A stretch of DNA of 64,000 nt from positions 1 through 64,000 of IMG/VR virus record IMGVR_UViG_3300001605_000025; one strand, written 5' to 3'. Each line of letters opens with the position of its first letter. Position 1 is the first letter of the stretch. A program made the position numbers and the translations under genes. The stretch is from a virus. Lineage: Duplodnaviria; Heunggongvirae; Uroviricota; Caudoviricetes. Positions 12,128 to 63,621 of the stretch are shown in pieces. The notes under the pieces were generated by a model. It worked only from the letters and a program-made list of their open reading frames with translations, was not told where the DNA came from and made no database searches.

Positions 12128-12253
12128 TTAAATTCTCCTCTCACTATACATCATCTTACCCTTCTCATCAAACTCCAACTTCTTCTTAATATCAACAATC
12201 TCCCATTCATTCTTATCCTTATTCCAAACCTTATCCTTCACAATCTCAATCAT
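12128..12253 (-). CDS. G-free-island protein 1 (41 aa)
   Basis: Hand-found ORF (MIEIVKDKVWNKDKNEWEIVDIKKK...). SD AGGAGGT 7 nt before the ATG. Approximate. Confidence 0.45.
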   Translation of the reverse strand: MIEIVKDKVWNKDKNEWEIVDIKKKLEFDEKGKMMYSERRI

Positions 12254-12436
12254 ACTCTTAACCTCCTATATATTTTCATAAACCTTAATAACATTAATAA
12301 AAATTTAACATATAACTATCTATATTCTATATATATGGTCACCGTACATCATTACCACTAGTTGCAATGTTTTGCACAAGCTAGCACCGGAAATACTTAA
12401 GGAGTAGCCCGTTAGTCCGTCTACTCGAACGTTCCG

Positions 12437-13006: not shown

Positions 13007-14478
13007 TTGAGACAGAGTGTCAGCTGTCAAGTCACGAGACGCTAGATGGAAAGGATTACGTTCAGTACATGAGAACTGTTCTAAAAGGTAAATCAGATCC
13101 AGTTTGGTGGATAAAAGAGTATCTAGGTGTTAAATTTGAACCACACCATATAGAACAAGAGCTCGTTCTACGTCAGTGGTATCGACATCGTTACAATCCA
13201 ACACTGATACCTTATAAGAATATGTACGTATTGGCGGGAATGAGGTCTGGAAAGACAGCACTTGATAGCATGATTACATGTTATGAACTGTTTGATGTTG
13301 TGACATTACCGAAGATTCCGTGGGAGTACTATAGCTTAATACGGAATCAGTTAGTAACGTTATCGATTCTATCGATTAGTCGTGACCAGTCAGATGACGG
13401 TCTATGGGGTAACGTCCAGCAGTTCCTCGACAAGAATGCGTGGTTCGACCAGTGGACTGACCTAACTCTGAAGTCAGAAAGTGCTGATATAGCGTCTAAA
13501 CGTGTTGGAATACGTGTTCTATCATCATCTAGCAGTACAATTGTAGGACGATCTAACAGATTCGTGGGACTAGATGAGTTAGATAGTTTTGAAAATACAG
13601 AAGGGAAGCGCGGAGCATGGAAAGTATTCACGAAAATGCAAAACTCAACACAGACATTCGGCCAAGATGGCCGACTTGCTGCAATATCATCATCGAACGA
13701 CGACCCGAATTCTATTATGAATACGTTAATCAGGCAGTCAGAAGGGAAGCAGAACGTTTTAGCAATTATGAAGCCTACTTGGATTATGAATACAGCGATT
13801 TCGGAAGCGGAGCTGAGGGAGGAGTACAAGGACAATCTAGCAGGGTTCTACAGAGACTTCGCATGTATGCCAGGTATGTACACTGGAATGGAGTTCCCAG
13901 ATGGTATAAAACTAGCTGATATACCGAATGTTTTCCTGACGAAACGTTCAGACGTTCCGTATGGTCGTGTCATTGCGATAGATCCTGCAGCTAAGAATGA
14001 TGCATTTGGTGTTGCTACTGGATATCGTGCGTTCGGTCGTGTGATTGTTGATGGGGTATGTCGGTTTCAGAAAACTGGAGATGAAGTCTTTATTAATCCA
14101 GAGGATATTGACAAGTTTCTAGAAGAATGTTATAAGTATATGAACATAAGAGCTCTTGTATTTGATACATGGATGTATCCGAACATTATTCATAAGGCAG
14201 AACATGATCACGGTCTTATGTGTGTCAAACATATTGTACGGAAAGCAGAATACGATGCAGTTAAAGGTATGATTAAACAGGGAACTTTGGATGTAGTAGC
14301 AGATCCAGTGCTAAAGCGTGAGTGTGAAGGATTAAAGATTATTAACGATTTACGGGTAGATCACCCGTTACAAGGGAGTAAAGACATGGCAGATTGTGTA
14401 GCAAACGTTGTATGGTACTTAACAGAATGTGAGGTTGAACCTCAGAAGCCGAGAATCTTATTAGCGAAGGTGTTCTAA
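13003..14478 (+). CDS. terL: terminase large subunit
   Basis: Walker A AGMRSGKT and a C-terminal RNase-H-like nuclease region (IAIDPAAKNDAFG). 491 aa, positioned before the portal. Confidence 0.85.
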   Translation: MIETECQLSSHETLDGKDYVQYMRTVLKGKSDPVWWIKEYLGVKFEPHHIEQELVLRQWYRHRYNPTLIPYKNMYVLAGMRSGKTALDSMITCYELFDVVTLPKIPWEYYSLIRNQLVTLSILSISRDQSDDGLWGNVQQFLDKNAWFDQWTDLTLKSESADIASKRVGIRVLSSSSSTIVGRSNRFVGLDELDSFENTEGKRGAWKVFTKMQNSTQTFGQDGRLAAISSSNDDPNSIMNTLIRQSEGKQNVLAIMKPTWIMNTAISEAELREEYKDNLAGFYRDFACMPGMYTGMEFPDGIKLADIPNVFLTKRSDVPYGRVIAIDPAAKNDAFGVATGYRAFGRVIVDGVCRFQKTGDEVFINPEDIDKFLEECYKYMNIRALVFDTWMYPNIIHKAEHDHGLMCVKHIVRKAEYDAVKGMIKQGTLDVVADPVLKRECEGLKIINDLRVDHPLQGSKDMADCVANVVWYLTECEVEPQKPRILLAKVF

Positions 14479-43722: not shown

Positions 43723-44355
43723 TTAGAATCTCTCCTTTAACGTTCTTCTTATCTGAATTGATTTCGCTGGACCAATTCCACGAACTCTCTGTAAATCTTT
43801 ATCTGGAACGTTTGCGATATTTGTTAAACAATTATGAGTCATCATTAATTGTGTCAGTTGTGCTGTTGAGATTCCAAGTAAACGTGCTGCCAGTATCGTG
43901 CGATCTCTTCTAACGGGAACATTATACTTTCCCTCATCAACTTTCTTCATGAACTTAACTAACGTGATCATACCTTCCCATTCGTTCTCTACCCATAACG
44001 GTTGAATACCGTACCGGCAGGCTATCGATGCGATCTCTCCGAAGAGAATATCTGGATCGATTGTTATCCCGATATCTCGCATATTCTTAACGTAAGGTGC
44101 TATAGCGCCTGTGATAAGCAGAATCTGGACTTTATCTTGGTGGACAGATATTCGTTCAATCTGATCGTGTATTCTACGATTAGGGCCTGTGATACTTCCA
44201 TACAAGTCTGCAATTGTCTTACGTTCAGCCAAACACCGTTCCGATTGGTAATCTCCTTCGTCTAGTTTAATCCTCCTGAACTTCATTTCCGGGAACTTCT
44301 TAGTTAAAAAGTCATAGTACTTTGGTGGCTCTCTTGTATCTACGTCGACTGGCAT
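43723..44355 (-). CDS. ERCC4/XPF-Mus81-Hef-type nuclease with C-terminal HhH2
   Basis: DTRE...GDYQSERCLAERKTIADL ERCC4 motif and GIGPAKSIQI HhH. Confidence 0.6.
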   Translation of the reverse strand: MPVDVDTREPPKYYDFLTKKFPEMKFRRIKLDEGDYQSERCLAERKTIADLYGSITGPNRRIHDQIERISVHQDKVQILLITGAIAPYVKNMRDIGITIDPDILFGEIASIACRYGIQPLWVENEWEGMITLVKFMKKVDEGKYNVPVRRDRTILAARLLGISTAQLTQLMMTHNCLTNIANVPDKDLQRVRGIGPAKSIQIRRTLKERF

Positions 44356-44594
44356 GGTATCGTTCCGCCTATCATTAGTTCCTCGTCACACCGTTTACAT
44401 CTACAGAGTACCTCGTAACGTACGGCTCCAACAATAACCTTCTTTAAAACAAAATCTGTAGGGTCCTCAGACCATATGCTAATTGGTTTCTCCATTATAT
44501 CACGATGAACTGTAACATCTAGAACGACCAGTTGATCAGCTGGATGTTTACAGTTTACTGCAGGATCTATTCCAACTATACTAGTTTCAGGCAC
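44340..44594 (-). CDS. Cys-containing hypothetical protein
   Basis: 84 aa. Confidence 0.35.
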   Translation of the reverse strand: MPETSIVGIDPAVNCKHPADQLVVLDVTVHRDIMEKPISIWSEDPTDFVLKKVIVGAVRYEVLCRCKRCDEELMIGGTIPCQST

Positions 44595-44595
44595 G

Positions 44596-44811
44596 TTATC
44601 CCTCTCGGAAAACTTTTCGTTCTATCATCATTCGAATAGCTTCTAGTGCTGGAGATATCTCTACCCAGTCTCCAGAAAAATAGCTGGTTGGTAAGTTTGC
44701 TTTATCGCAATATGAATCAAACAGTTCAGACTTCTGCATCCATTCATGTTCTGTGTCCAGAAGCTCTAAAAATTGGACTAACGTTAGATTAGTTTCTTTC
44801 CCTTCCGACAT
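44596..44811 (-). CDS. hypothetical protein
   Basis: 71 aa. Confidence 0.35.
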   Translation of the reverse strand: MSEGKETNLTLVQFLELLDTEHEWMQKSELFDSYCDKANLPTSYFSGDWVEISPALEAIRMMIERKVFREG

Positions 44812-45563
44812 ACCGACACCACGTCATGCTGATGAATTGATTCCTGATGTGTACAGACGACTACCCAATCTTCCATCCATCCATCGATCGTTGCACCGAT
44901 CACTCTTGAAGCATCCTCGACAAACAGATTCGTTCGGGCGGCTCGCTGACACCAATCTAGTTCGTCCGGTCTCTTCATCAACGGTATAGGAACAATGTCT
45001 ACCACTTCGATGATCCGTGCTACAATTGATGTCATTAGATCGTCCAGGTCCTCCTTCGGCGATAACAATCCAGTTACCTGTGCTAAAGCTCGCTGCATAT
45101 GAGGAACCCCTCCTTCTTGTTTCACCATTCTCATGGCACATGGGCACACACTCGCATACGGAACTTTCATAGTCAGATACCAATCTTCTTTATCGGGTAC
45201 ACGGACACCTTCTAACATACTATCTATAAAGATCAATTGTTCGTTCTCCATCTCATATGCTGCTGTCCAATTACATTCCCAGTAACTGTTAGTCGTTTCA
45301 TGTCCTTCAGCTAACGTTTCTAATAATTCTGAGTTCATATAAATCGGATCGTCCTCGTAATCTGTTAACGCATCAACTAATCGTGACATATGAACACCAG
45401 TCCGATCGATCAGATCAACATAAGCAGACTGACTTGTTAACGTTCGTCGTCCGCTAAAGTCTTGCATAAACTGTTTGAATCCTTTAATACCAACTTTCTC
45501 TAGTGGCATACCACCAGACGGACCTTCAGCATAGTCAGGTAACAATCGTACACATGAATCCAT
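44784..45563 (-). CDS. folE2: GTP cyclohydrolase FolE2/MptA-like
   Basis: N-terminal LPDYAEGPSGGMPLEKVGIKGFK resembles the FolE2 LPDVQ...VGIKxL block. The start was trimmed to the ATG with SD AAGGAG. Confidence 0.5.
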   Translation of the reverse strand: MDSCVRLLPDYAEGPSGGMPLEKVGIKGFKQFMQDFSGRRTLTSQSAYVDLIDRTGVHMSRLVDALTDYEDDPIYMNSELLETLAEGHETTNSYWECNWTAAYEMENEQLIFIDSMLEGVRVPDKEDWYLTMKVPYASVCPCAMRMVKQEGGVPHMQRALAQVTGLLSPKEDLDDLMTSIVARIIEVVDIVPIPLMKRPDELDWCQRAARTNLFVEDASRVIGATIDGWMEDWVVVCTHQESIHQHDVVSVCRKGKKLI

Positions 45564-45564
45564 A

Positions 45565-45738
45565 CTACTGCTCCTTTGGGTTCTTCCAGTTACCAAATAC
45601 AGTCTCAAGAACAGCTGCTGAATATGGATGTGTATTACATGAATTATGAAGTAGCTGTTGGTCACAGCTTATAGCTCGTAACGCCTCTCCAATTGCATCT
45701 ACTTTCTGTTCAAGTCTTTTAAAGTCTTTAGTAGTCAT
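45565..45738 (-). CDS. small hypothetical protein (57 aa)
   Basis: The ATG overlaps the QueE stop (TAATG). Approximate. Confidence 0.3.
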   Translation of the reverse strand: MTTKDFKRLEQKVDAIGEALRAISCDQQLLHNSCNTHPYSAAVLETVFGNWKNPKEQ

Positions 45739-46385
45739 TATCTCACCTTATACAGTACATGAAGTCTCGGGCTTACGGCTCCGTTAACTCCATATTCATC
45801 CATCATACGAATAATCTCACGAACCATTCTATTATGTTCCGTTATCATCGTATCGTCCTGGGGAGTCATCGGCATAAAGTACATTCTCACTTCAGAGTGT
45901 TCAGTTGCCCATTTCATCCACCATCTAATATTCTCATACCTAATAACTGGTTTAATAACTACATCTACTTCACAAATGTTAGTCCACAACGTTAATAGAT
46001 CGGTCAGTCCAGAAGTAGGTAGTTCACTATCTTTCGGACTAACAACTACCAGATCGAACGCAGCAACACCAAACGGTATCGTTCCATTCGTTTCGATAGC
46101 ATGTGTCATACCTAACGATTCAACTGAAGCGATCGTATCCTTTATCTCATCAACCTGGAGTCCAGGTTCTCCACCAGTCCAGACAACGTTCCTCACTCCT
46201 TTCTTATATGCTTTAGTAATCAGGCTTTTTAGTTCAGTCCGACTAACATTAATATACAGTGTTGCGTATTTCGTATCACAAAAAGGACAATGAAGATTAC
46301 AGCCCGATAGTCTTATAAACAACGACCGTACTCCAGCTTGTGGACCTTCACCCTGAATCGATATAAACGTTTCGTTTAGTCTCAT
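45738..46385 (-). CDS. queE: 7-carboxy-7-deazaguanine synthase (radical SAM)
   Basis: FISIQGEGPQAGVRSLFIRLSGCNLHCPFCDTKY. Confidence 0.8.
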   Translation of the reverse strand: MRLNETFISIQGEGPQAGVRSLFIRLSGCNLHCPFCDTKYATLYINVSRTELKSLITKAYKKGVRNVVWTGGEPGLQVDEIKDTIASVESLGMTHAIETNGTIPFGVAAFDLVVVSPKDSELPTSGLTDLLTLWTNICEVDVVIKPVIRYENIRWWMKWATEHSEVRMYFMPMTPQDDTMITEHNRMVREIIRMMDEYGVNGAVSPRLHVLYKVR

Positions 46386-46816
46386 TGTAACCCTCTCTCA
46401 GGAGTCCACGTGACGGTAGCCTTACTAACATCATTCTCCCATACCGTCACACTAACCATTGTTAGTGGTCCAAGTTTCCAGTTGTACACATCCATCACAC
46501 TATTACAAAGTAACGTTGCAATATTTTCGCATGTTGGATTCTCTCTCGTTGGATATACTAGTTGATTACACGATCTAAGTATCTGAACTAACGGATCAGA
46601 TTCTTTCAGTATCACTTTATGATCCATACCATCCGTTAGTCTTTTAAGTACCGTAAAGTTCTCGAGGTACCCAACAGAGTTAACTTTGTCACCCTGTAAG
46701 ACAAAATCTACTTTCCAATTATGCCCATGTAAGAATCCACATTTCGAATCATCACCATACTGTCTATGTGCAGCTTCAAAATCGACAGACGTCTGTATCG
46801 TAACCATGATGTTCAC
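46382..46816 (-). CDS. queD: 6-carboxy-5,6,7,8-tetrahydropterin synthase
   Basis: CGFLHGHNWKV motif, 144 aa, ATGA overlap with queE. Confidence 0.75.
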   Translation of the reverse strand: MNIMVTIQTSVDFEAAHRQYGDDSKCGFLHGHNWKVDFVLQGDKVNSVGYLENFTVLKRLTDGMDHKVILKESDPLVQILRSCNQLVYPTRENPTCENIATLLCNSVMDVYNWKLGPLTMVSVTVWENDVSKATVTWTPERGLQ

Positions 46817-46825
46817 CTAAAAATT

Positions 46826-46992
46826 TAGTGCCTGGTAACTACAGGTACTTGTTCACACTGTCTAACGATAGTCCCATTAGTTCCAGTTTTCTTATAATCA
46901 GTGCAATACATTTGAGGTCCATGTAACACTTTGAGTGCTGCTGGACATTTTCTAGCTCTCGATACGTTGACACATTTAACAATTTCTTTCAT
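46826..46992 (-). CDS. small Cys-rich protein
   Basis: Hand-found ORF (MKEIVKCVNVSRARKCPAALKVLHGPQMYCTDYKK...). Approximate. Confidence 0.25.
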
Positions 46993-47219
46993 TTGACCGC
47001 CCTTAATAACGCTGATTCAGTCGATAACTGTTCATCATCAGGATATAGTTCCTCAAACATTGCTAACGATTCTTCAAATTGTTCCGTTGACATCTCTTTA
47101 TGATGTTTCACGTTCTGTTCTATCGTACCACAAATCTTTCGTGCAGCAATATCAGACTTTCCACGTTTCCGTTGTGCCGTCACACATGCTGCAAAATCTG
47201 GATATGGACCGATTGGCAT
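46989..47219 (-). CDS. hypothetical protein
   Basis: 76 aa. Confidence 0.35.
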   Translation of the reverse strand: MPIGPYPDFAACVTAQRKRGKSDIAARKICGTIEQNVKHHKEMSTEQFEESLAMFEELYPDDEQLSTESALLRAVK

Positions 47220-47336
47220 AACTAATCATCTTCCTGTAGTTCTCTTTTGATCACAGTACATGCTGCGGTAATTGCACTACAGTAGACCTTACTCTCGGTT
47301 CTGTTCGATCCACCGTACCTACATTCATCTTTAATC

Positions 47337-47606
47337 TTAGCAATAAGTTCCTTTGCTGATAACATACTCATCTCCTTGGCCTAACGTTGATAGTGCTTTA
47401 GCTGATAACTGATAGATATTATTATACTGTTCTTGCGCTATCGTAATCAGCCAACCATCTTTAGATGCTCGTGTGATTGATGTCGCAACGTCATCACCAA
47501 GATACTTTCGAACCTTAGTTCTCGTAAATGATGTTTGCTTAAATCTATCGTACAGGAGAACAATTAGTTCTCGTGGTGGTATCTTGCCTACTTTCCGTCT
47601 AGTCAT
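47337..47606 (-). CDS. hypothetical (possible winged-helix) protein
   Basis: 89 aa. Confidence 0.35.
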   Translation of the reverse strand: MTRRKVGKIPPRELIVLLYDRFKQTSFTRTKVRKYLGDDVATSITRASKDGWLITIAQEQYNNIYQLSAKALSTLGQGDEYVISKGTYC

Positions 47607-47608
47607 CT

Positions 47609-47827
47609 CTAACTCTCATCCTCCAGTTCCTTAGTTAAATCATCTCTCATATCATTAAGTTCAGCTCTTATATCAACCAACTGACTGTCTAGATCAGAAA
47701 TATTTAGTACTACTGTCTCAATATCAAGCTCGTCGGTACTACATAGCTTATGTACAGCATCAAGTTGGTTAATTGCTTCATTCATCATATACCTAATACT
47801 AGCTAAGTACTCAGGTATGTCGTTCAC
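47609..47827 (-). CDS. hypothetical coiled-coil protein
   Basis: 72 aa. Confidence 0.35.
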   Translation of the reverse strand: MNDIPEYLASIRYMMNEAINQLDAVHKLCSTDELDIETVVLNISDLDSQLVDIRAELNDMRDDLTKELEDES

Positions 47828-48231
47828 TTTATCTCCCTCGCGATTACAACTCGATTCAAGTGGTCAGCTGTCTGAATATAAATGTTCGTTCTTGGAGTCC
47901 ATTTAATAGTAACACGAACATTCCGTTCACGAATAACAGTTAGAACAGTTGTACAGAGTTCAGCTAACCGTTTATTCGTAGTCTGGTACTGTTTGTTCAA
48001 CTGTTTAACAACAAGTTCACTATCCGAATACAGTGTTATGTCATCGTATCCCTCTCCTATACAATAGTTTAATGCGTTCAACAGTCCAGTATACTCAGCA
48101 ACGTTATTCGTTACACCTGTAAGTATATCAGTTCGTTGATACACTACTATATTGTTCTTCACTATTAAAAAGGAGGCTGCACCTATCCCGTTGCTATTCT
48201 TACCGGATCCATCACTGTAAGCTACAATCAT
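47824..48231 (-). CDS. rnhA: ribonuclease H
   Basis: YSDGS, NNVAEYTGLLNAL, YSDSELVV and ADHLN catalytic blocks. Confidence 0.75.
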   Translation of the reverse strand: MIVAYSDGSGKNSNGIGAASFLIVKNNIVVYQRTDILTGVTNNVAEYTGLLNALNYCIGEGYDDITLYSDSELVVKQLNKQYQTTNKRLAELCTTVLTVIRERNVRVTIKWTPRTNIYIQTADHLNRVVIAREIK

Positions 48232-49030: not shown

Positions 49031-50950
49031 TTATGAACATCCAGACCACCCGCATGTCATACACGTTCCGCTTCTACAACCCGAACCGAAACTAAGTACC
49101 GTCCCACATTGTGGACACTTATTCGTTACAATTTCAGATTCTGTAAACCAGAATGCATTCATTCGTTTCGCAAGAATATCCGGACAACTCTTTCCAGCAG
49201 AGTTTGGATTCTTCATTGCGGTAGTACACTCAACTTTCGATAGCGTCGATATGATCCGTTTAATCGTTGTCTTCTCATCACCATAGAGTCTCGGGTCATG
49301 TATATACTTGGAAATAACCTTCCCCATTCCTTCCATGTTAGCCTTACATCCGCCTTGCGTGAGAACATAAGCTTCGTATGGGTGATCGTCGGCGATGTTG
49401 TTATTGGTAGTAACGTGTATCTCGCCACACCCTGTGGGGAAGTCCAACGTTCTACCGTATCGTTCAACTCTGTCTCCTTTAGAGCTCGGTTGGCCTCTTC
49501 CTGGAATCGGTCCAGTAGGTCGAACAGATGTAAGTACCTGTTTATCTTTTGAACCATCTCGATACACCGTTATCCCTTTGCATTTCAGTTTCCAAGCTAA
49601 ATGTATCGCATCCTCAATATCCTGTACTGTAGCACTTGATGATAGATTAATCGTTTTTGATACAGCGTTATCAACATGGTTCTGCCAGGCAGCCATATGT
49701 TTCAACTGCCACTCTACAGATATATGCTTAGCTGTATCTTCTAGTAATCCATGTTGTCTTGCGAGATCGGTCAGTGGATGTTCGAGTGTTACAATTCCAG
49801 CTTCTGACTCTCGTGTGTACGTCCAGTCAAATACTGGTTCGATACCTGACGAACAATCTGCAAGGAAGGATAATGTTCCAGTTGGAGCAATCGTCATAAC
49901 TGTTTCGTTGTTATAGGTCCGTCCTGGAACTTCTCTCGTTGCAACATCATAGTACCTAGATCCAATCTTATCGATCAACTGAATCGCTTCTGTTGATTGA
50001 TAGCTGATACCCATTTTAATCAGTAAGTCAGCCCAACCCATAACACCGGATCCAATCTTTCTAGACAGTAATGTAGCCTCTCGTATCTCTGGTATCGGGA
50101 ACGTATTCAAATCAATAACATCGTTTAACGCTCGTACCGACAATCTTACCGTATCGTCAAGCATCCCGTAATCAAACGTCTCTCCTTCCGGTATCAGTTT
50201 ACTTAGATTGATAGACGCTAAATTGCACGACTCATACGGTCGTAACGGCTGTTCGCCACAAGGGTTCGTACAATCGATAACACCTCTCTCAGGAAACCGA
50301 TTCGTCTCGTTGAGTCTATCCAAAAATACGACACCGGGGTCTCCCGTTCTCCAGGCATGCTCTGCAATAGTGTGAACCAGTCCGTTATCGCTTTGCATAT
50401 CTGAGTCCTTGATCCCGACGCTAATATTGAAATGTGATAGTCCGGATCCACTATCTTTACAGTGTATAAACTCTTGGATGTCTGGATGATCAGCGTTAAG
50501 TATCCCCATATTGGCACCCTCGCGTTTACCTCCTTGGGATACCACACCGGCTGACTCGTTAAGCAATTCCATGACTTTAACAGGACCACATGCTTTCCCT
50601 TTAGTTGATTGTATAAGTGAGCCACGTGGTCTAAGTCTAGAGAAGTTGAAACCGGTTCCACCAAAGTACTTATGCACACGGGCGGCGTGCCAAACCGTTC
50701 TATATATTCCATCCAGTGAATCTTCCACTGGTAAGACGTAACACGCTGATAATCCTCCAGCTCCCGGTACGCCTGCATTAACAAGCGTCGGAGTGTTTGG
50801 CAACCAGATTCCGTGAGACATAGCATTGAGCAATGTTTCCGTGTACTTGCGATCCTCTCGTCCGATAAACTTTGCAACTCTCTCATATACATCACGTTCT
50901 GTTCTCTCTCCAGGTTGTAAATAACGATCCTTTAGTAGTTTCTCTTTCAT
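49031..50950 (-). CDS. ribonucleotide reductase catalytic subunit (probably class II, B12-dependent) with C-terminal Cys-rich tail
   Basis: NPCGEQPL...CNLASINL active-site block. 639 aa single chain, C-terminus CPQCG...CMTCGWSGC. Confidence 0.75.
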   Translation of the reverse strand: MKEKLLKDRYLQPGERTERDVYERVAKFIGREDRKYTETLLNAMSHGIWLPNTPTLVNAGVPGAGGLSACYVLPVEDSLDGIYRTVWHAARVHKYFGGTGFNFSRLRPRGSLIQSTKGKACGPVKVMELLNESAGVVSQGGKREGANMGILNADHPDIQEFIHCKDSGSGLSHFNISVGIKDSDMQSDNGLVHTIAEHAWRTGDPGVVFLDRLNETNRFPERGVIDCTNPCGEQPLRPYESCNLASINLSKLIPEGETFDYGMLDDTVRLSVRALNDVIDLNTFPIPEIREATLLSRKIGSGVMGWADLLIKMGISYQSTEAIQLIDKIGSRYYDVATREVPGRTYNNETVMTIAPTGTLSFLADCSSGIEPVFDWTYTRESEAGIVTLEHPLTDLARQHGLLEDTAKHISVEWQLKHMAAWQNHVDNAVSKTINLSSSATVQDIEDAIHLAWKLKCKGITVYRDGSKDKQVLTSVRPTGPIPGRGQPSSKGDRVERYGRTLDFPTGCGEIHVTTNNNIADDHPYEAYVLTQGGCKANMEGMGKVISKYIHDPRLYGDEKTTIKRIISTLSKVECTTAMKNPNSAGKSCPDILAKRMNAFWFTESEIVTNKCPQCGTVLSFGSGCRSGTCMTCGWSGCS

Positions 50951-51603
50951 AGTCTCATCACGTTACCGATGTAATCTTCGTCACGCTTTAAGTACAGATG
51001 TGGACAGAAACAAATATGTGTATACGTTCCAACCGGTAGTCCTACAGCTAACGATATATGTTTCTGTAACTCCGTTAGTCCATACATATTTGGACCTAGT
51101 CCCAGTGTCATATCCTCCGACCGGAATACAACTTTCATATTTAAACGTCCTTCTCTTACATCACAATGTATCAACTGTAAGCACGGAACGTCTTCACGAG
51201 TCGTATCCAATTTCGGATTCCATGTTATCGCTTGAGCTCGTCTAGTAGATGGTGACCCAATAAGTTTCTGTTCAATATACGTTATCTGGTTGATCCCAAA
51301 GTGATGCGTTAATCGATCGTGGTAATCGTAGACAAAGTCAGCAGACGTTCCCGCAATCAGATCGTTAGCATACTGATCCATATACTTCTGACTGAACGGT
51401 AGTGTGGGAGGTTTAATAAATCGTGGTTCCACAAACGGAGTTCTAATAAACAATGCTAGTTCTTTAGCCTCAATAGTATCCTGTTTGTTCTCTCCAGGAT
51501 ATACAATCGGGCATTCAGTCTCATCTTTATAACAATGGTTCATGATATACCGTATAACGATCTCATGACCTTTCGCTAAGTTAGGTGCTTGTAACAACTT
51601 CAT
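50947..51603 (-). CDS. thymidylate-synthase-family enzyme (ThyA / dCMP- or dUMP-hydroxymethylase-like)
   Basis: PCLQLIHCDV...RSEDMTLGLGPNMYGLTELQKHISLAVGLPVGTYTHICFCPHLY matches the ThyA fold blocks. Short at 218 aa. Confidence 0.55.
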   Translation of the reverse strand: MKLLQAPNLAKGHEIVIRYIMNHCYKDETECPIVYPGENKQDTIEAKELALFIRTPFVEPRFIKPPTLPFSQKYMDQYANDLIAGTSADFVYDYHDRLTHHFGINQITYIEQKLIGSPSTRRAQAITWNPKLDTTREDVPCLQLIHCDVREGRLNMKVVFRSEDMTLGLGPNMYGLTELQKHISLAVGLPVGTYTHICFCPHLYLKRDEDYIGNVMRL

Positions 51604-54109: not shown

Positions 54110-54670
54110 TCATGGTGTATTCTCGAAATAACGAGATCCCGTGGCTCCAGTCTGATCATGATATTTTGCGTCATGTTTCGAATAATACGGAACATTAGCG
54201 TGGTGTGTCTTATAAAAAACTAATTGAGCGATAGGCATCCCAGCTGTCAGAATGATAGAGCGCATATTCTCGTTCGTCATCTCTAAGGTAATTGTACCCC
54301 GGAATCCGCAATCCACCCATCCGCCAGTTTGATGTACAGTAATCCCTAATCTCGCTAACGAGCTTTTGCCTTCGATCGTCGCACATACTTCATCACTTAA
54401 CTCAATCCGTTCCATCGTTTCAGCTAGTAAGAATGAATTCTTCTCTAATGTTATCCGTTCAGCTGTAAAATGATGTAGACCAAGTTCTACTGATTCTTTA
54501 TCATATGGATCAATCGGATAGTTAAATGACTGGATATCATACACAGCAAAGTTATTACCTAGTCTAACATCAATACTATTCGACTGAATACCATTCTTAT
54601 ATAGTGGCAGTATCTTTATATCTCCACTTTCCAATAATCCGTTCAGTTGCCAATCAACCATTACGCTCAT
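54110..54670 (-). CDS. dCTP deaminase/dUTPase-superfamily enzyme
   Basis: N-terminal MxxxDxQLxxL...GDIKI and a VDCGFRGTITLEM block. Confidence 0.55.
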   Translation of the reverse strand: MSVMVDWQLNGLLESGDIKILPLYKNGIQSNSIDVRLGNNFAVYDIQSFNYPIDPYDKESVELGLHHFTAERITLEKNSFLLAETMERIELSDEVCATIEGKSSLARLGITVHQTGGWVDCGFRGTITLEMTNENMRSIILTAGMPIAQLVFYKTHHANVPYYSKHDAKYHDQTGATGSRYFENTP

Positions 54671-55835: not shown

Positions 55836-56340
55836 TGAACACCTGTGTCTGTACTCTTTCTAGTGGAATTGTACCAATATCTTTAACACCATATTCAACC
55901 GACGTAGCTGTAAGTGCCTGTCGGTTACCATACGAAAAATATACATAGTATAGTCCGATAGAGGATCCTTTAGGAAGTGTCACACTGAATGATCCATCAC
56001 CGGTTGTACTAGTATTGGCGACATCTTTAGAACTTTCATTTTTCACGGTAACTACTATAGCTGCTTGTGGAAGACCATCTACTGTGGCCTTACCTTGAAT
56101 TTTAATATAGTCAGGAGTCGGAGTTGGTGTAGGTGTTGGTACAATAACCAATACTAGGAGTATAGCCACGAGTATCATGACTGTCCATACTATCTGTTTC
56201 AGATCCATTTGATCACATCCAATTAGAACCATTTTGTTAGTCCGGTTTGTCCATTGATTTCTGTATCCCAATTCAATCCGATAGATTCCATTAAAGACTC
56301 CATCTTCATCTGAACTGTCTTCAGTCCCATTTTTTGCCAA
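55822..56340 (-). CDS. membrane protein with PTPTPTP linker
   Basis: One TM helix followed by a Thr-Pro linker. Confidence 0.4.
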   Translation of the reverse strand: MAKNGTEDSSDEDGVFNGIYRIELGYRNQWTNRTNKMVLIGCDQMDLKQIVWTVMILVAILLVLVIVPTPTPTPTPDYIKIQGKATVDGLPQAAIVVTVKNESSKDVANTSTTGDGSFSVTLPKGSSIGLYYVYFSYGNRQALTATSVEYGVKDIGTIPLERVQTQVFNESS

Positions 56341-58508
56341 TCAACCGTAACACGAGATAATAGATCAGCGTCAGGATAATCAGTATCGATACATATAACG
56401 TCAACGGGACTAATGCAATATAATAACTTAGGCTTCTTGTCTGCCCTGAACTTAATTCCAAGAAGTTTCCGTCCATTCTCTTTACCTCGAATCCAAGGGC
56501 TTGAACCTCTCTCTTCGTGTGAACGATTCTTTGTAATACCCTTAGGTATCGCTACAAGTTGACAACCAACTCTACCGTTCAATATATTATAGTAAGTTTC
56601 TCTTATTAAACGTACTGCTGTTTCGGGATCATTGTTAACGAGAACGTTCTCGAAGAATTGTTTCATCAACGTTCTCGATATCTCGGCAGTATCCGATCGT
56701 TTGACTTCAAGCCCAGTATAGTTAACCTTTGGTGGTAGTTTTGTAAGGTCTTGTCCATCCTTCCAAATAAGAACACCGGCATAACGTTTCTTCGCAGCGA
56801 CGTCCTTGTCCGACCGTTTCTTAAACATAAGTGTGCGGTATATCTTCTCCAGTTTAAGCGTAGGAGCAAGATGGTCGGCGATATTGACGGATCGTGCCCA
56901 ATCCAAGAGATAAGTATTGAGTTCCGTCTGGATGCGCAAACCTTCTTCTGGTGTCTTAACTGGCTTGATAAACGTACTGTCCGTATCCCCATAGACGATA
57001 GTATAACCCAACTCTCTGATGCGTTTATGTAGTTCTCTGGAGATCTCGCGACCCTTTCCAGTAATAAACGCTGCGATTTCGGGTTTATGGAGTCTGGCTC
57101 CAGAAAAAGCCAAATATCCGTAGAACGCGTTGATGACATATTTCAAACTCTGTTCACTAGTTAACATAGCCTTTGAGGCTTTACCTTCCATTTTCAATCG
57201 TCTCATCACATCTCTAGCTTCCATCAATTCAACGATGATCTTAGGTATCATCTTAAGTCTGTCCGGACTCAGATTAAACGCTAAGATAATTGATGGGTAT
57301 AGAGCTTTCAAATCAGTAGTACCAACGTTCTCGTGAACACCAAACTCCGGTTGTAAGACTAACGCTCCTTCATAATCAACCGATACCACATCATGTCGCT
57401 TAGTCGGTAGAGGCATAACCTCACCAGCTAATACGACCTTATGCATGATATAGTATTCGATAATCTTTGCACGTTGATAGCAATCGGTAATCTTGATACC
57501 GACCATCCTACGGAGAGACTCGTAGAACTCTATAAGTCCAGTTTCAGCATCGATCTTCTGTAACGCAATAACATCATTCTTTCCGTACTGTATAAGTTCC
57601 TTCCAACGCTTCTCTTGGATCAAGGTACGGATATGATCTCCGTGGTCTTCGTACGTGAACTGTGCCTCGTGCCGTGCCACAAACTTTAAGTCGTAAGTTG
57701 GTAAACCACCCTTTGGCTTGCTCCAGTCCTTGTAGAATTTCAGCATATCGAAGAGTTCCCGTCCTTGCCATCTCTCCTCGTCTGGGTACGTCGTAGGCCA
57801 CCTCGATAACTTCGAAACATTGACCTTGAGCATCCTTGCTCTTCTTATGATATACGGAATATCGAACTTTTCGCTGTACCAACCGCACATCAGATCCGGA
57901 TCTGTTCTCCAAACGAACTCTACAAATGCTGTGAGTAATTCCTGTTCCGTATCGAACGACTCTTGGTCTGGGTCGATCAACTCTCCGTTCAGTGTAAACA
58001 CTTTGCACTCTGATGTGTAAGAATCTAGGACCTGTATCTGACAGATTGGCCATTTGCATTCCTCCGGTAGTGGCATTTCATCAACTGGACTATCAACTTC
58101 AATATCGAAAAAGCAGCATCTCGGTTTCAACATCGGAACGTCTATTGGGTGTCCCAGTTCATCGAACCCATACATGATTCCGTGATCGATTAGGTAACGC
58201 ATATCGTAAACGATATCCGCTTCGCACGTAAACGGAAAGAGATCACGTACCTTCGGAACGTCACTCGGTAATCTTGTGAAACATCGTGTAACGTTTCGCC
58301 CAAAAGCATCAATGTAACCAGGTTCCGTTCTAGTGATAAAAGGAGTTGACGGAATGTACGACCCTCCTCCGTAAAAGTAAGGTTCTTGATTTCCAAACCC
58401 CATAACTTTGACTTCTTCCGGTTTATCATAATTCCGACCTATCAATACCGTTATTGGTTTCCCGTTATGCATTGTCCAGAACGATTGTTCCCAAACGTAC
58501 CGACTCAT
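56223..58508 (-). CDS. family B DNA polymerase
   Basis: Exo I FDIEVD, motif A DLKALYPSI and motif C YGDTDS. Confidence 0.9.
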   Translation of the reverse strand: MSRYVWEQSFWTMHNGKPITVLIGRNYDKPEEVKVMGFGNQEPYFYGGGSYIPSTPFITRTEPGYIDAFGRNVTRCFTRLPSDVPKVRDLFPFTCEADIVYDMRYLIDHGIMYGFDELGHPIDVPMLKPRCCFFDIEVDSPVDEMPLPEECKWPICQIQVLDSYTSECKVFTLNGELIDPDQESFDTEQELLTAFVEFVWRTDPDLMCGWYSEKFDIPYIIRRARMLKVNVSKLSRWPTTYPDEERWQGRELFDMLKFYKDWSKPKGGLPTYDLKFVARHEAQFTYEDHGDHIRTLIQEKRWKELIQYGKNDVIALQKIDAETGLIEFYESLRRMVGIKITDCYQRAKIIEYYIMHKVVLAGEVMPLPTKRHDVVSVDYEGALVLQPEFGVHENVGTTDLKALYPSIILAFNLSPDRLKMIPKIIVELMEARDVMRRLKMEGKASKAMLTSEQSLKYVINAFYGYLAFSGARLHKPEIAAFITGKGREISRELHKRIRELGYTIVYGDTDSTFIKPVKTPEEGLRIQTELNTYLLDWARSVNIADHLAPTLKLEKIYRTLMFKKRSDKDVAAKKRYAGVLIWKDGQDLTKLPPKVNYTGLEVKRSDTAEISRTLMKQFFENVLVNNDPETAVRLIRETYYNILNGRVGCQLVAIPKGITKNRSHEERGSSPWIRGKENGRKLLGIKFRADKKPKLLYCISPVDVICIDTDYPDADLLSRVTVDWQKMGLKTVQMKMESLMESIGLNWDTEINGQTGLTKWF

Positions 58509-59657: not shown

Positions 59658-60494
59658 TTAGTCCACCATTGATCGCTTTGGTAGTTCAGACTCAGCAAAG
59701 ATCATCTGACCGTCAGCTTGTGTAAACGCATCCAGGAACTGAATATTCTTCACGATATCGTACATCATCACCTTATCATCAAGTCCAGAGTTATCAGATC
59801 CATCCCAACTAATCGGTAACCGTGATGTAACTTTCCGTCCGTCCATCTTAACGTTCCGTGTTATCTGCCACTGCTGTTTCAAATCGACTTCGTTAATAGC
59901 AGCACTAACACACAAGCTACTATCAATACTATTAAACCGACCAGCCATATTATATATTTCAAGCAGGTTATCCCATCCAAACGCGTGGACGTAACGATCT
60001 TGAGGAAGGTCCAAAAACTTATGCAAGCTACCACGATCGAAACCAAGACGGTAACTAAAGATACTGATTCCGAGAGCGACATCTCTATACTTCCGTATCA
60101 TATTCCACTGTTCTAGCATCTCGTTAGGTCTTTCGTGAAGAATACACATCAGATTAATATTATCATCCAGAAGACCTTCAGACTGGTACTCCTCCAGAAT
60201 ATCAATAGTCATCCGACCAGTTTCAATTCCATCCGTCAGTTTCTCAGGTCCAACAACGAACACCTGATCGGCATCAAGTTGTCTAGCCATGACCATCATA
60301 TGTTCAAAATCAGTAGCCTTTACATCTTCATATAATGCATTATCTAGAACTACGGTATCCCATTTCCGTCCGAGATAGAAGTCTCGATAGGCTTTAATCT
60401 TCCAGTACTGTGATAGAATAAAAACATTAGTTGTTCCTGCAACATCTAACGTCTCCAGGTATCCAATCGGAACGATCGGCATATAGTTAACCAT
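59658..60494 (-). CDS. hypothetical protein (tested and not confirmed as DpdA/TGT-like)
   Basis: 278 aa. No diagnostic motif recognised. Confidence 0.4.
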   Translation of the reverse strand: MVNYMPIVPIGYLETLDVAGTTNVFILSQYWKIKAYRDFYLGRKWDTVVLDNALYEDVKATDFEHMMVMARQLDADQVFVVGPEKLTDGIETGRMTIDILEEYQSEGLLDDNINLMCILHERPNEMLEQWNMIRKYRDVALGISIFSYRLGFDRGSLHKFLDLPQDRYVHAFGWDNLLEIYNMAGRFNSIDSSLCVSAAINEVDLKQQWQITRNVKMDGRKVTSRLPISWDGSDNSGLDDKVMMYDIVKNIQFLDAFTQADGQMIFAESELPKRSMVD

Positions 60495-60897
60495 TCAGTT
60501 CATCTCCTTTAACAATAATAGTAGATGATGTTCCCGTTAACGCTGTTCGTTTCTTTGGACTAATCGGTTGTAAGCTAGTTACATGATCCGATAACATTGA
60601 TATGTCCGAATCCGTACCGATTACCGGAGCATGTTCCACTGATGGTTGTGTAGCATCATCCAGTAACGATAATGCTAGTGCGCAATAATTCGCAGTATCG
60701 ATCAGTTCATCACGAAGCTTAGAACTCGATACAGAGTACCGCGCTCGTGTAGCCTTAATCGTGATCTGGACTAACCAATCTTCAAGTCCATGTAATGCAA
60801 TAACATCAGTCGTATATCCAGGACCAGCAGACGTAAGTCTGTCAATCATATGTTCTAACTGTTTAATAGCTTTCTTCGTTCTTTCATCAGCAGTCAT
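60487..60897 (-). CDS. hypothetical protein
   Basis: 136 aa. Confidence 0.4.
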   Translation of the reverse strand: MTADERTKKAIKQLEHMIDRLTSAGPGYTTDVIALHGLEDWLVQITIKATRARYSVSSSKLRDELIDTANYCALALSLLDDATQPSVEHAPVIGTDSDISMLSDHVTSLQPISPKKRTALTGTSSTIIVKGDELNG

Positions 60898-61972: not shown

Positions 61973-63496
61973 TTACCCCGTTAAAAAAGTATAGTGTTCA
62001 ATATCCTTTAACATTGTTCCACGATCAGCTTCAAACATTGGAACAAACTTGAATACTGCATCGCTGTATCCACTAATCGGACATGTTAACGGATCCGACT
62101 CTGGAATCTTAAGTAGTCCGTAAGACGATACATCGAAACTATACAGTCTACAGTTCGGATTGACTTTCATCCTGTACTGTTTAAGCACATCCTGAACGTC
62201 ACTACCGTACCCGTAGCTATTATAGCACTGCATATCGGAGAACAAGAAGATCCGATCGTAGAACTGGTTCTTCGATAATATATCAGTTATTGCTAACCAA
62301 GCATTAGTAGAATGACCAACGTCAGTAGTAGCAACTTTCTGCATATTAGTAAGAATGCTGTCACGTTTAGATAACGGTACAGTCTTGTAAGTTTGTCCGA
62401 ACGCACCAACTGTTGCCTCCTCACATACATGTAACGAGATTGCACTGAACAGTGATGCGATATCAATGCACTGAACAGTACTCTTATCGGAAACGTCTGA
62501 ATGCATCGATCCACTGTTATCAGACGCAATAAATGTCTTGCCTGATATCCGTGGAACATTCTCAACGGATATAGTCATTGCATCGTTTATCGCATCCAGA
62601 ACTTTTGTAGGTCCACCTACCTCACGGTAAGCACTGAAGAACCTATAGGGGAACTGTTTACTTTTCCGTACAGCAACAGGATCCGTTAACCGCTTCAGAT
62701 AAAGATTCATATCAACATCATGCTTCTGGAAGTTTCTTAAGTTCCTCAGTAGCGCCATGTAGCCCATCTTTGGAATTACTTCCTCCCATGTCCTCTTAGA
62801 AGCACCGTTCTTCGAAATGTGAGTCTCCCAAGTAAACGGAGTCTCCAATGTTCCGTTGATAATCTTATCATACAGTACCTGTTGTTCTGCAGATTTCGGT
62901 TTCGGATGTGTCAGGAAGATAACATCTTTCAGTGTTACCTTTCCTTCACGATTATACTTCGCCAGCTGGTATTCATCAAACTGGTTTAACGCATCACTAA
63001 TACCCTTCTTTAGCATTCCAGGTATCGGAGCGAATGTCTTCGGTACATACTTCTTACCTTGAGCTTCAAGTGAGGCTTTCCGTTTCGCTTCTACTTCTGG
63101 GTTAATAGGTGACGACGCTAAAAAGTATGCTATCGCTTCTGCGGGTTCGTCAGCTCTCCGAAGAATACTTGAAACATATTTATACGCACCTTCCAGTTTA
63201 GTTCCAGCCTTAGCATACTCAACTAATAGAAACACAGGAACAGTTCTCAAGTACATTTCGTTCCGTGCATATGCCGCCAACTTCGGTACGTACTCAGGAT
63301 CGTTTACACTGATCCGTTTAACAAGATTCAGTATAGCATCGCTAGTCTGTTTCTCCTTCGTATAGTATGAGTCTCCAGACATCATAAACGACATCGTGTG
63401 GAGCATCAATGCTAACTTGTCAGAAGGCTTATACGCTTCCGCCCCCTCATAGTTAACGGGTTTCGTTCCGTTTGGTTTTGCATTAAATCTCGCCAT
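61973..63496 (-). CDS. rsr: Ro60 orthologue (TROVE domain + vWA/MIDAS)
   Basis: MALLRNLRNF, FPYRFF, IASDNSGSM (MIDAS DxSxS) and FLFSD blocks align with human Ro60. SD GGAGAAG before the ATG. Confidence 0.7.
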   Translation of the reverse strand: MARFNAKPNGTKPVNYEGAEAYKPSDKLALMLHTMSFMMSGDSYYTKEKQTSDAILNLVKRISVNDPEYVPKLAAYARNEMYLRTVPVFLLVEYAKAGTKLEGAYKYVSSILRRADEPAEAIAYFLASSPINPEVEAKRKASLEAQGKKYVPKTFAPIPGMLKKGISDALNQFDEYQLAKYNREGKVTLKDVIFLTHPKPKSAEQQVLYDKIINGTLETPFTWETHISKNGASKRTWEEVIPKMGYMALLRNLRNFQKHDVDMNLYLKRLTDPVAVRKSKQFPYRFFSAYREVGGPTKVLDAINDAMTISVENVPRISGKTFIASDNSGSMHSDVSDKSTVQCIDIASLFSAISLHVCEEATVGAFGQTYKTVPLSKRDSILTNMQKVATTDVGHSTNAWLAITDILSKNQFYDRIFLFSDMQCYNSYGYGSDVQDVLKQYRMKVNPNCRLYSFDVSSYGLLKIPESDPLTCPISGYSDAVFKFVPMFEADRGTMLKDIEHYTFLTG

Positions 63497-63538: not shown

Positions 63539-63619
63539 GGTAACGGGTGGGAGTTGAACCCACACTGACTATCATCGTACTTGTCAGCTCCACCATGTAC
63601 GACAGGGCAATTCCGTTAC
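63539..63619 (-). tRNA. tRNA-like element 1 (possibly a Y-RNA module or atypical tRNA)
   Basis: Minus strand: perfect 7-bp acceptor GTAACGG/CCGTTAC and a T-arm GTGGG-TTCAACT-CCCAC. The interior (49 nt) does not fold into a canonical D/anticodon layout by eye. Confidence 0.4.
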
Positions 63620-63621
63620 CA

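What the first reader, a model, noticed from the sequence alone, without database searches (positions are those of the whole stretch)
44784..46816. 7-deazaguanine precursor cluster (FolE2-QueE-QueD) without recognisable QueC or DpdA in the window
queD and queE carry textbook motifs, and the upstream gene matches FolE2/MptA. Together they make 7-carboxy-7-deazaguanine. No PP-loop QueC (SGGxDS) and no clear TGT-like DpdA were found among 64 kb of ORFs (59658..60494 was examined and not confirmed). The virus may use host QueC, install a CDG-derived base, or encode the missing steps outside the window. A genome with deazaguanine-modified G makes the G-free island at 11452-12336 more intriguing.
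Basis: partly seen in the sequence, partly recalled or inferred. Interest (0 to 1): 0.6.

Follow-up and report, generated by a model that had tools for sequence, protein, structure and literature searches.

The report
Viral 7-deazaguanine DNA modification gene set
The three genes belong to a known type of viral system that probably replaces guanine in the virus's own DNA with 7-deazaguanine; the "missing" insertion enzyme is in the window after all, and the missing chemistry step lies just outside it.

Summary
Window 44784-46816 (minus strand) encodes FolE2, QueE and QueD, the route from GTP to 7-carboxy-7-deazaguanine (CDG). QueC is absent from the window and from the whole 74.8-kb genome, which I rebuilt from public contigs.

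The claim of no DpdA is wrong. It has a confident TGT-type fold. A profile comparison with the DpdA3 subfamily gives 96.9% probability, against less than 1% for the other phage DpdA proteins tested (DpdA1 and a mycobacteriophage DpdA).

About 2.9 kb past the window end, the same genome encodes a DpdL. This is the QueD paralogue with the LxxxHRHxF signature, proposed to be a CDG decarboxylase.

FolE + QueD + QueE + DpdL + DpdA3 without QueC is the published gene set of Cellulophaga phage phiST, whose guanine is fully replaced by 7-deazaguanine (dDG). Related viral contigs keep DpdL, DpdA and PolB in the same order; the one relative whose QueD-QueE-FolE2 region was recovered keeps that cassette, and no locus fetched has QueC.

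Verdict: a new member of a known system, in an uncultured and probably archaeal virus. It uses FolE2 instead of FolE and a very divergent DpdA3. The modified base is inferred, not shown.

The parts
44784..45563 (-). FolE2-type GTP cyclohydrolase I (GCYH-IB), 259 aa. First step: GTP to dihydroneopterin triphosphate.
   Evidence: PF02649 E 4e-32, 112 bits against a cut-off of 25. NF010200 FolE2 E 1.2e-29, MptA only 6e-12. PDB FolE2 chains 2r5r, 8g6c and 3d2o match at 7e-10 to 1.5e-6 over about residues 17-257, with conserved motifs. The public gene call starts at 45563.
45565..45738 (-). 57-aa ORF of unknown function between QueE and FolE2.
   Evidence: Called as a gene in the public contigs, with no family hit. 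Absent at this position in relative L030, so probably not essential to the pathway.
45738..46385 (-). QueE, radical-SAM 7-carboxy-7-deazaguanine synthase, 215 aa.
   Evidence: PF04055 E 1.8e-13. QueE TIGRFAMs TIGR03963, TIGR04349 and TIGR04508 at 7e-23 to 3e-20. phrog_2076 'QueE-like' E 3.3e-33. CxxxCxxC cluster present as CNLHCPFC.
46382..46807 (-). QueD, 6-carboxytetrahydropterin synthase, 141 aa. An alternative GTG start at 46816 gives 144 aa.
   Evidence: PF01242 E 2e-21. TIGR03367 QueD E 6.6e-17. phrog_2389 E 7e-25. Catalytic signature CxxxHGH present as CGFLHGH.
59658..60494 (-). DpdA3-like DNA guanine transglycosylase, 278 aa. It is predicted to swap G in DNA for the 7-deazaguanine base. 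It lies 12.8 kb upstream of QueD in the same transcription direction and about 1.1 kb upstream of the PolB gene.
   Evidence: AF2 model pLDDT 91.5, pTM 0.90. The 50 best Foldseek PDB matches listed are all tRNA-guanine transglycosylases, E about 3e-8, prob 1.0. BFVD: phiST M4SLA5 (259 aa, the size of DpdA3) at E 1e-8, TM 0.64/0.68, the highest identity among the hits at E <= 1e-3. hhalign against three cultured-phage DpdA3 proteins: 96.9%, E 1.5e-10, 233 columns. Against DpdA1 of phage 9g 0.8%, against mycobacteriophage DpdA 0.4%. 7 of 32 family members weakly hit PF01702 TGT. The DpdA3 HMM hits only this ORF in the six-frame genome, E 3e-6. Invariant residues: D51-N52, H170-x-x-G173, S189-x-D191-x-S193.
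60487..60897 (-). 136-aa ORF of unknown function that overlaps the DpdA start by 8 nt. It is a possible partner, but its role is unknown.
   Evidence: No family hit. Homologues lie upstream of DpdA (directly abutting it in L022 and L032) in relatives L020, L022, L031 and L032.

Best explanation
The three genes are the base-synthesis arm of a phiST-type 7-deazaguanine DNA modification system. Its parts are spread over three places in one long minus-strand replication and nucleotide-metabolism module of a 74.8-kb tailed-virus genome.

Proposed route:
1. FolE2 converts GTP to H2NTP.
2. QueD makes CPH4.
3. QueE makes CDG.
4. There is no QueC, so preQ0 is not made. Instead DpdL removes the carboxyl group to give 7-deazaguanine. 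DpdL is a QueD paralogue in which the catalytic Cys is Leu and HGH is HRH (LREPHRHKF). It lies outside the window at extrapolated coordinates 66900-67283 on the minus strand (L009 10001-10384, L001 3212-3595, P0038).
5. The DpdA3-like transglycosylase (59658-60494) exchanges guanine in the viral DNA for this base after replication, giving dDG. The modified DNA should resist host restriction enzymes and other DNA-targeting defences.

Shown here: the identity of all five proteins by profile, motif or fold; the absence of QueC from the whole genome; and conservation of the gene set in relatives.

Inferred: DpdL chemistry (unproven even for the founding member), DpdA substrate and efficiency, and the final base.
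For: - FolE2, QueE and QueD are identified.
- DpdA3-like protein: fold and profiles as listed in 'parts'.
- DpdL: signature LxxxHRHxF found by motif scan. BLASTP against Cellulophaga phi19:2 gp040, which I take to be DpdL from its position, size and LSLNHRHLF motif, gives E 2e-6. tblastn against cultured phages gives Xanthomonas BUDD 8e-15 and an Acidovorax ACP17 ORF next to QueE 1e-9; ACP17 is named as DpdL-bearing in PMC10516641. AF2 predicts a T-fold (pLDDT 82) whose best PDB match is E. coli QueD 4ntk. The three His and two Glu shared with QueD are invariant, as the paper describes.
- The genome closes to 74,840 bp and has no QueC, Gat-QueC, SGGxDS or ArcS motif. Positive controls work.
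- Relatives: DpdL sits 4-6 kb upstream of DpdA, followed by PolB, in L017, L019, L028, L029 and L031. L032 has DpdL and DpdA but ends before PolB. L030 keeps RNR, RNase H, QueD, QueE, FolE2 and ERCC4 in order. It is probably the same virus as L031: its QueE protein (P0076) and the L031 DpdA (P0015) are each recorded on a 70,639-bp contig. None of these loci has QueC.
- Literature: phiST encodes FolE, QueD, QueE, DpdA3 and DpdL, lacks QueC, and has 100% dDG. DpdA3 viruses are fully modified (PMC10516641).
Against: - There are no chemical data on this virus's DNA.
- DpdL decarboxylase activity has never been demonstrated. The authors who proposed it could not reconstitute dDG in E. coli.
- The DpdA is only about 20% identical to phiST DpdA3 and is invisible to BLAST in either direction. 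Its substrate could differ.
- DpdA3 phages of Campylobacter carry dADG, not dDG.
- The five genes are not adjacent. DpdL to DpdA is 6.4 kb and DpdA to QueD is 12.8 kb, so joint function rests on co-occurrence.
- Whether every relative with DpdA and DpdL also has QueD, QueE and FolE2 was checked for one lineage only.
Confidence: 0.6

Rival explanations
1. This is the same DNA-modification system with a different final base. DpdA inserts CDG itself, giving dCDG. Or CDG is amidated to give dADG, as in Campylobacter phage CP220. DpdL would then do something other than decarboxylation.
For: DpdA3 substrate specificity is unknown, and DpdA3 phages of Campylobacter carry dADG although their pathway stops at CDG. 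dCDG exists in nature, in STSV-2. DpdL activity is unproven.
Against: A clear DpdL with the full LxxxHRHxF signature is conserved next to DpdA in every relative with enough flank. [quoted passage not shown] No amidotransferase or QueC-like protein is in the genome.
Confidence: 0.2
2. The virus supplies CDG, and host QueC (plus other host enzymes) finishes preQ0 or a later base. The DpdA then inserts it, giving dPreQ0, dPreQ1 or dG+.
For: QueC is absent from the virus. Many archaea and bacteria encode QueC for archaeosine or queuosine (general knowledge).
Against: It leaves the conserved DpdL without a role. The protein matches DpdA3 and not the two other phage DpdA proteins tested. DpdA3 was judged unlikely to insert preQ0. 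The host is unknown, so host QueC cannot be checked.
Confidence: 0.1
3. The genes are auxiliary metabolic genes. They boost host tRNA queuosine or archaeosine, or pterin and folate supply, and viral DNA is not modified.
For: FolE2 and QueD-like enzymes also serve folate and pterin pathways.
Against: QueE commits the pathway to 7-deazapurines. QueD has the CxxxHGH signature that PMC10516641 gives for QueD. The genome also carries a DpdA-family transglycosylase and a DpdL; PMC10516641 treats a DpdA as the signature of DNA modification. The DpdA model is a single 278-residue TGT-like barrel with no additional domain predicted, so there is no PUA or other tRNA-binding domain. All five genes sit in the DNA replication module.
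Confidence: 0.05

Closest known systems
Cellulophaga phage phiST / phi19:2 / phi13:1 dDG system (FolE, QueD, QueE, DpdL, DpdA3; Cui, Hutinet et al. 2023, PMC10516641)
   Same: Same component list and same absence of QueC. DpdL carries the same LxxxHRHxF signature. The DpdA is of the DpdA3 type with the shared LDN...H-x-x-G...S-x-DS pattern. DpdA lies just upstream of the replicative polymerase gene.
   Different: GTP cyclohydrolase is FolE2 (PF02649) here and FolE type I there. The polymerase is PolB here and Pol III alpha there. The genes are dispersed over about 22 kb here and clustered within about 4 kb there. No MazG-like NTP pyrophosphohydrolase was found here. DpdA identity is only about 20% and DpdL 25%. 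The host is probably archaeal rather than Flavobacteriia.
Campylobacter phage CP220-type system (FolE, QueD, QueE, DpdA3; dADG, complete replacement)
   Same: The pathway stops at CDG, there is no QueC, and the transglycosylase is DpdA3-type.
   Different: The product there is dADG. I did not fetch CP220 sequences, so no direct comparison was made.
DpdL-bearing phages such as Acidovorax ACP17, Xanthomonas BUDD/X1, Burkholderia BCSR5 and Pseudomonas PA5oct
   Same: The DpdL homologues are closest in sequence, at 33-40% identity and E 1e-7 to 8e-15. In ACP17 the gene lies next to QueE, with QueD and FolE nearby.
   Different: These are large bacterial myoviruses or jumbo phages. The ACP17 ORF next to DpdL (ASD50404) shows no similarity to the DpdA here.
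DpdA4 / DUF6610 systems of haloarchaeal tailed viruses (HVTV-1, dPreQ1)
   Same: They are archaeal tailed viruses. PolB is the closest cultured relative of the PolB here, at 25-28% identity. They carry out 7-deazaguanine DNA modification.
   Different: The DpdA here shows no DUF6610 hit. Those viruses make preQ1 through QueC and QueF, and this one has neither.

Membership tests
phiST-type dDG (7-deazaguanine) DNA modification system | A GTP cyclohydrolase I, QueD (CxxxHGH) and QueE are all encoded by the virus. | tested here: met
   The cyclohydrolase is the non-orthologous FolE2 type.
phiST-type dDG (7-deazaguanine) DNA modification system | QueC and Gat-QueC are absent from the genome. | tested here: met
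   Searched over the whole 74,840-bp genome in six frames. The best E is 1, while controls score 1e-50 to 1e-123. No SGGxDS motif.
phiST-type dDG (7-deazaguanine) DNA modification system | dDG is present in virion DNA in place of dG. | not testable with these tools
   Needs LC-MS/MS of virion DNA. The virus is known only from metagenome contigs.
DpdA3 subfamily of DNA guanine transglycosylases | TGT-like TIM-barrel fold. | tested here: met
   AF2 pLDDT 91.5. The 50 best Foldseek PDB matches listed are all TGT, prob 1.0, TM about 0.63.
DpdA3 subfamily of DNA guanine transglycosylases | Sequence-profile homology to DpdA3 specifically, rather than to other DpdA subfamilies. | tested here: met
   hhalign gives 96.9%, E 1.5e-10 against the DpdA3 alignment, 0.8% against DpdA1 (9g) and 0.4% against mycobacteriophage DpdA. 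There is no DUF6610 (DpdA4) hit. No phylogeny was made, so sister-group status cannot be excluded.
DpdA3 subfamily of DNA guanine transglycosylases | Conserved acidic residues at the positions of the TGT substrate-binding and nucleophile aspartates. | tested here: inconclusive
   D51-N52 and S189-x-D191-x-S193 are invariant in 32 homologues. They align with LDN and STDS of DpdA3 and with the H-x-F-G...DSS of DpdA1. Equivalence to TGT Asp102 and Asp280 is my inference from motif position, not from a residue-level structural superposition.
DpdA3 subfamily of DNA guanine transglycosylases | Base-exchange activity on DNA. | not testable with these tools
   Needs a biochemical assay. Even known DpdA3 proteins were not active in E. 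coli tests.
DpdL (proposed CDG decarboxylase, QueD paralogue) | Signature LxxxHRHxF replaces the QueD signature CxxxHGH. | tested here: met
   LREPHRHKF in P0038, and HRHxF in all eight homologues and in relatives L017, L019, L028, L029, L031 and L032. The gene is outside the window.
DpdL (proposed CDG decarboxylase, QueD paralogue) | T-fold similar to QueD, with three His and two Glu shared with QueD. | tested here: met
   The AF2 model has beta-beta-alpha-alpha-beta-beta topology, pLDDT 82, and its best PDB match is E. coli QueD 4ntk, TM 0.66-0.70. H19, H35, H37, E81 and E106 are invariant across DpdL and QueD.
DpdL (proposed CDG decarboxylase, QueD paralogue) | Sequence homology to DpdL of phages named in the literature. 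| tested here: met
   phi19:2 gp040 E 2e-6. An ACP17 ORF adjacent to QueE E 1e-9. Relatives' DpdL against phi19:2 DpdL 7e-9.
DpdL (proposed CDG decarboxylase, QueD paralogue) | CDG decarboxylase activity. | not testable with these tools
   Unproven for any member of the family.
FolE2 / GCYH-IB | Matches the family model above the curated threshold. | tested here: met
   Pfam PF02649 scores 112 bits against a cut-off of 25. The NCBIfam equivalog NF010200 scores only 103.7 bits against a cut-off of 215, so it is a divergent member. Alignment to PDB FolE2 keeps the CPC, HxQR, KRPDE, FVED and ESIHxH segments.
QueC (7-cyano-7-deazaguanine synthase) | PP-loop ATPase with SGGxDS. | tested here: not met
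   No such protein or motif occurs anywhere in the genome.

The most novel reading that the evidence does not exclude
This is a lineage of uncultured tailed viruses of methanogenic or other archaea. They fully replace guanine by 7-deazaguanine using a previously unrecognised, BLAST-invisible branch of DpdA (sister to DpdA3), together with DpdL and a FolE2-type cyclohydrolase. That would be the first dDG system outside Flavobacteriia phages. It would also be the first DpdA3/DpdL pair in archaeal viruses, which so far are known only with DpdA4 or with DpdA plus ArcS.
Probability: 0.3. Interest if true: 0.55.

Novelty: new member of a known kind. Interest (0 to 1): 0.4.

Why it matters
- It removes an apparent puzzle. 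A CDG pathway with no way onward and no way into DNA turns out to be a complete, published type of anti-restriction DNA hypermodification system.
- DpdA3-like and DpdL proteins escape Pfam, PHROG, NCBIfam and BLAST, so such systems are probably under-counted in metagenomic viruses.
- If the archaeal host and the dDG product are confirmed, the known range of complete G-to-7-deazaguanine replacement widens. It would also give a second, very divergent DpdA3/DpdL pair for the biochemistry that failed with the phiST and ACP17 proteins.
- Fully 7-deaza-substituted DNA is of practical interest for restriction resistance and for sequencing and PCR chemistry.

Tried and rejected
- Megablast of 44000-48000 against 50,697 phage records: no match.
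- PDB sequence search with the DpdA candidate: only noise-level ThsA hits.
- tblastn of the DpdA candidate against phages: only noise, E >= 0.5.
- Pfam, PHROG and NCBIfam on the DpdA and DpdL candidates: no hits. The known phi19:2 DpdA3 and its DpdL-like gp040 also give no meaningful Pfam hit, so this is not evidence against them.
- ACP17 ASD50404, next to DpdL, tested as a possible DpdA relative: no similarity.
- Single-protein QueE scan of IMG/VR: found only unrelated viruses that carry QueC. I used these as positive controls.
- Look-up of P0013 returned short contigs that do not reach the Que genes.
- Look-up of the 2379-aa tail protein: not on record.
- GTDB genome scan with the DpdA profile: one contig, in a Planctomycetales MAG bin, which does not settle the host. 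Cluster names gave only one Fervidobacterium MAG.
- No tRNA in the window by ARAGORN.
- Supplementary tables of PMC10516641 are not held.
- Full-text searches for DpdL and DpdA3 found no relevant paper other than that one.
- A DpdA4/DUF6610 assignment was rejected because no Pfam hit appears in any of 32 family members.
- ArcS was rejected because the genome has no PC-x3-KPY motif.
Full report
**1. What is at the coordinates**

The minus strand of 44784-46816 carries three tightly packed genes, with a 57-aa ORF (45565-45738) between the second and third.

- QueD, 46382-46807. PF01242 E 2e-21, TIGR03367 E 7e-17, phrog_2389 E 7e-25. It has the catalytic signature CxxxHGH as CGFLHGH.
- QueE, 45738-46385. 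Radical SAM PF04055 E 2e-13. Five QueE TIGRFAMs score 1e-16 to 7e-23. phrog_2076 E 3e-33. The cluster motif is CNLHCPFC.
- FolE2, 44784-45563. PF02649 E 4e-32, 112 bits against a cut-off of 25. NF010200 FolE2 scores 1e-29, against 6e-12 for MptA.

Public gene calls on identical contigs agree. They place the FolE2 start at the ATG at 45563 (259 aa), not the upstream GTG. FolE2 aligns over nearly its whole length to solved FolE2 structures and keeps the CPC, HxQR, KRPDE, FVED and ESIHxH segments.

**2. The genome**

The window is part of a virus known only from metagenomes. The sample labels include MLSBCLC and SRR943323/SRR943327. Two 74,870-bp contigs with different start points let me close the sequence. 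The window plus the reverse complement of L009 2444-13283 gives a 74,840-bp circular assembly, and both junctions match exactly. The window therefore lacks 10.8 kb, all of which I could read.

**3. QueC is absent**

- Pfam and NCBIfam scans of every sizeable replication-module ORF found no QueC.
- Precomputed Pfam on the called genes covers about 0-16 kb and 36-75 kb of the genome and lists none.
- Six-frame phmmer with a phage QueC and a Gat-QueC, and a 4-sequence QueC HMM, give nothing better than E = 1 over the whole genome.
- There is no SGGxDS motif and no ArcS PC-x3-KPY motif.
- The same queries find QueC at 1e-50 to 1e-123 in unrelated viral loci, so the search works.

**4. A DpdA is present in the window**

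ORF 59658-60494 (278 aa) has no Pfam, PHROG or NCBIfam hit and no BLAST hit in cultured phages. Other evidence identifies it.

- It has 37 metagenomic homologue clusters. Invariant residues are D51-N52, H170-x-x-G173 and S189-x-D191-x-S193.
- Seven of 32 homologues weakly hit PF01702 TGT.
- The AlphaFold model is confident (pLDDT 91.5, pTM 0.90). The 50 best Foldseek PDB matches listed are all tRNA-guanine transglycosylases (E about 3e-8, prob 1.0).
- In the viral structure library, a 259-aa uncharacterised phiST protein (M4SLA5), the size of DpdA3, ranks third at E 1e-8 and has the highest identity among the hits at E <= 1e-3.
- hhalign against Cellulophaga phi19:2 gp042 gives 83.5%, E 8e-6. 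gp042 is 100% identical to its phiST counterpart, the DpdA3 founder.
- hhalign against an alignment of three cultured-phage DpdA3 proteins (phi19:2, Chryseobacterium MA9V-3, Bacillus BSP7) gives 96.9%, E 1.5e-10 over 233 columns.
- DpdA1 of phage 9g gives 0.8% and a mycobacteriophage DpdA gives 0.4%.
- The DpdA3 HMM hits this ORF alone in the six-frame genome.

As in phiST and BSP7, the gene lies just upstream of the replicative polymerase gene.

**5. The missing chemistry is outside the window**

A motif and phmmer scan picked out a 127-aa ORF 2.9 kb past the window end. Its coordinates are L001 3212-3595, L009 10001-10384, and extrapolated 66900-67283 on the minus strand. It carries LREPHRHKF. 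LxxxHRHxF is the published signature of DpdL, the QueD paralogue proposed to decarboxylate CDG to 7-deazaguanine (PMC10516641).

- It matches phi19:2 gp040 at E 2e-6. I take gp040 to be DpdL from its position, size and LSLNHRHLF motif.
- It matches ORFs in Xanthomonas, Burkholderia, Acidovorax ACP17 and PA5oct-like phages at 8e-15 to 1e-7. The ACP17 ORF lies next to QueE.
- Its model is a T-fold whose best solved match is E. coli QueD.
- The three His and two Glu shared with QueD are invariant.

**6. Conservation**

DpdL lies 4-6 kb upstream of DpdA, followed by PolB, in L017, L019, L028, L029 and L031. L032 has DpdL and DpdA but ends before PolB. A distant relative keeps the order RNR, RNase H, QueD, QueE, FolE2, ERCC4 (L030). 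Its QueE is 38% identical to the window's. The same protein (P0076) and the DpdA of L031 (P0015, GCA_040961665.1) are each recorded on a 70,639-bp contig, so L030 and L031 probably represent one virus. It also lacks QueC.

**7. Mechanism and comparison**

FolE + QueD + QueE + DpdL + DpdA3 without QueC is the gene set of Cellulophaga phage phiST. In phiST, dG is undetectable and is replaced by 2'-deoxy-7-deazaguanosine. DpdA3 viruses are the ones with complete replacement. The best explanation is therefore GTP to CDG (FolE2, QueD, QueE), then CDG to 7-deazaguanine (DpdL), then insertion into DNA by DpdA.

Differences from phiST:
- FolE2 instead of FolE.
- Genes dispersed over about 22 kb of one co-oriented replication module, rather than clustered.
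- No MazG-like gene found.
- Very low identity: about 20% for DpdA and 25% for DpdL.

The weak points are that DpdL chemistry is unproven anywhere, that DpdA3 substrate range is unknown and Campylobacter phages give dADG, and that no DNA chemistry exists for this virus. I put dDG at about 0.6, another 7-deazaguanine in DNA at about 0.3, and no DNA modification at about 0.05.

**8. Host**

The host is not established. Several features point to an archaeal, possibly methanogen, virus.
- Thymidylate synthase best fits the methanogen-type model TIGR03283 (E 7e-48).
- The terminase carries PF27249 MJ0330_N.
- PolB is nearest to haloarchaeal tailed viruses.
- ERCC4, an MCM-like ATPase and a PCNA-like protein are present.

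The MAG bin names attached to homologues (Planctomycetales, Fervidobacterium) disagree, but bins are unreliable for viral contigs.

**9. Verdict**

This is an ordinary though divergent new member of a published system. Interest is moderate (0.4). It rests on the probable archaeal host, the FolE2 swap, and the fact that standard annotation misses both key proteins.

Noticed in passing
window 11452-12336: This is an 885-nt stretch with no G at all on the + strand. The next longest G-free run in the 74.8-kb genome is 66 nt. The minus strand there carries four small ORFs of 41, 89, 48 and 63 aa, three of them with a clear Shine-Dalgarno-like sequence upstream, written only in C-free codons, so they contain no Ala, Pro, Thr, His or Gln. 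Public gene callers call them too. Relatives with 70-89% identical terminase have only 91-142-nt G-free runs at the same place. If the DNA is fully dDG-substituted, the template strand of this operon would carry no modified base. That link is speculative.
   Followed up: partly
window 61973-63496 (Ro60/TROVE + vWA gene); tRNA-like elements at window 63539-63620 and 63953-64015 (L009 13664-13745 and 13269-13331), minus strand: The virus encodes a Ro60 orthologue. The 1.1-kb gene-free stretch just upstream holds two imperfect tRNA-like elements. One scores 30.9 bits against Rfam tRNA (gathering score 29). The other is tRNA-Sec-like at 29.4 bits, below its gathering score. ARAGORN calls neither. 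This resembles the tRNA-like modules of YrlA-type Y RNAs that accompany bacterial Rsr (my recollection, not tested).
   Followed up: partly
window 50947-51603, 54110-54670, 49031-50950: These are a methanogen-type thymidylate synthase (TIGR03283 E 7e-48, just under its cut-off), a dCTP deaminase (TIGR02274 E 1e-48) and a class II-like RNR with a TSCPD domain. I did not examine whether the ThyA-like enzyme makes dTMP or a modified pyrimidine.
   Followed up: partly
window 60487-60897; L028 4276-4920: A 136-aa ORF of unknown function overlaps the DpdA start by 8 nt. Homologues lie upstream of DpdA in four relatives. In another relative, a protein with a PEP-utilizers (phosphohistidine swivel) domain occupies that position instead.
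   Followed up: no
window 13003-14478 and 56223-58508: The large terminase carries the Pfam domain MJ0330_N, named after a Methanocaldococcus protein. PolB is closest to haloarchaeal tailed-virus PolB at 25-28% identity. The terminase's nearest cultured relatives are Microcystis phages at 22%. The replication and packaging modules therefore give mixed signals about ancestry.
   Followed up: partly
L030 2817-5678: In a distant relative, the RNR gene is interrupted by an intein with an HNH/LAGLIDADG-type endonuclease, and a free-standing LAGLIDADG gene follows it. The window's RNR has no intein.
   Followed up: no
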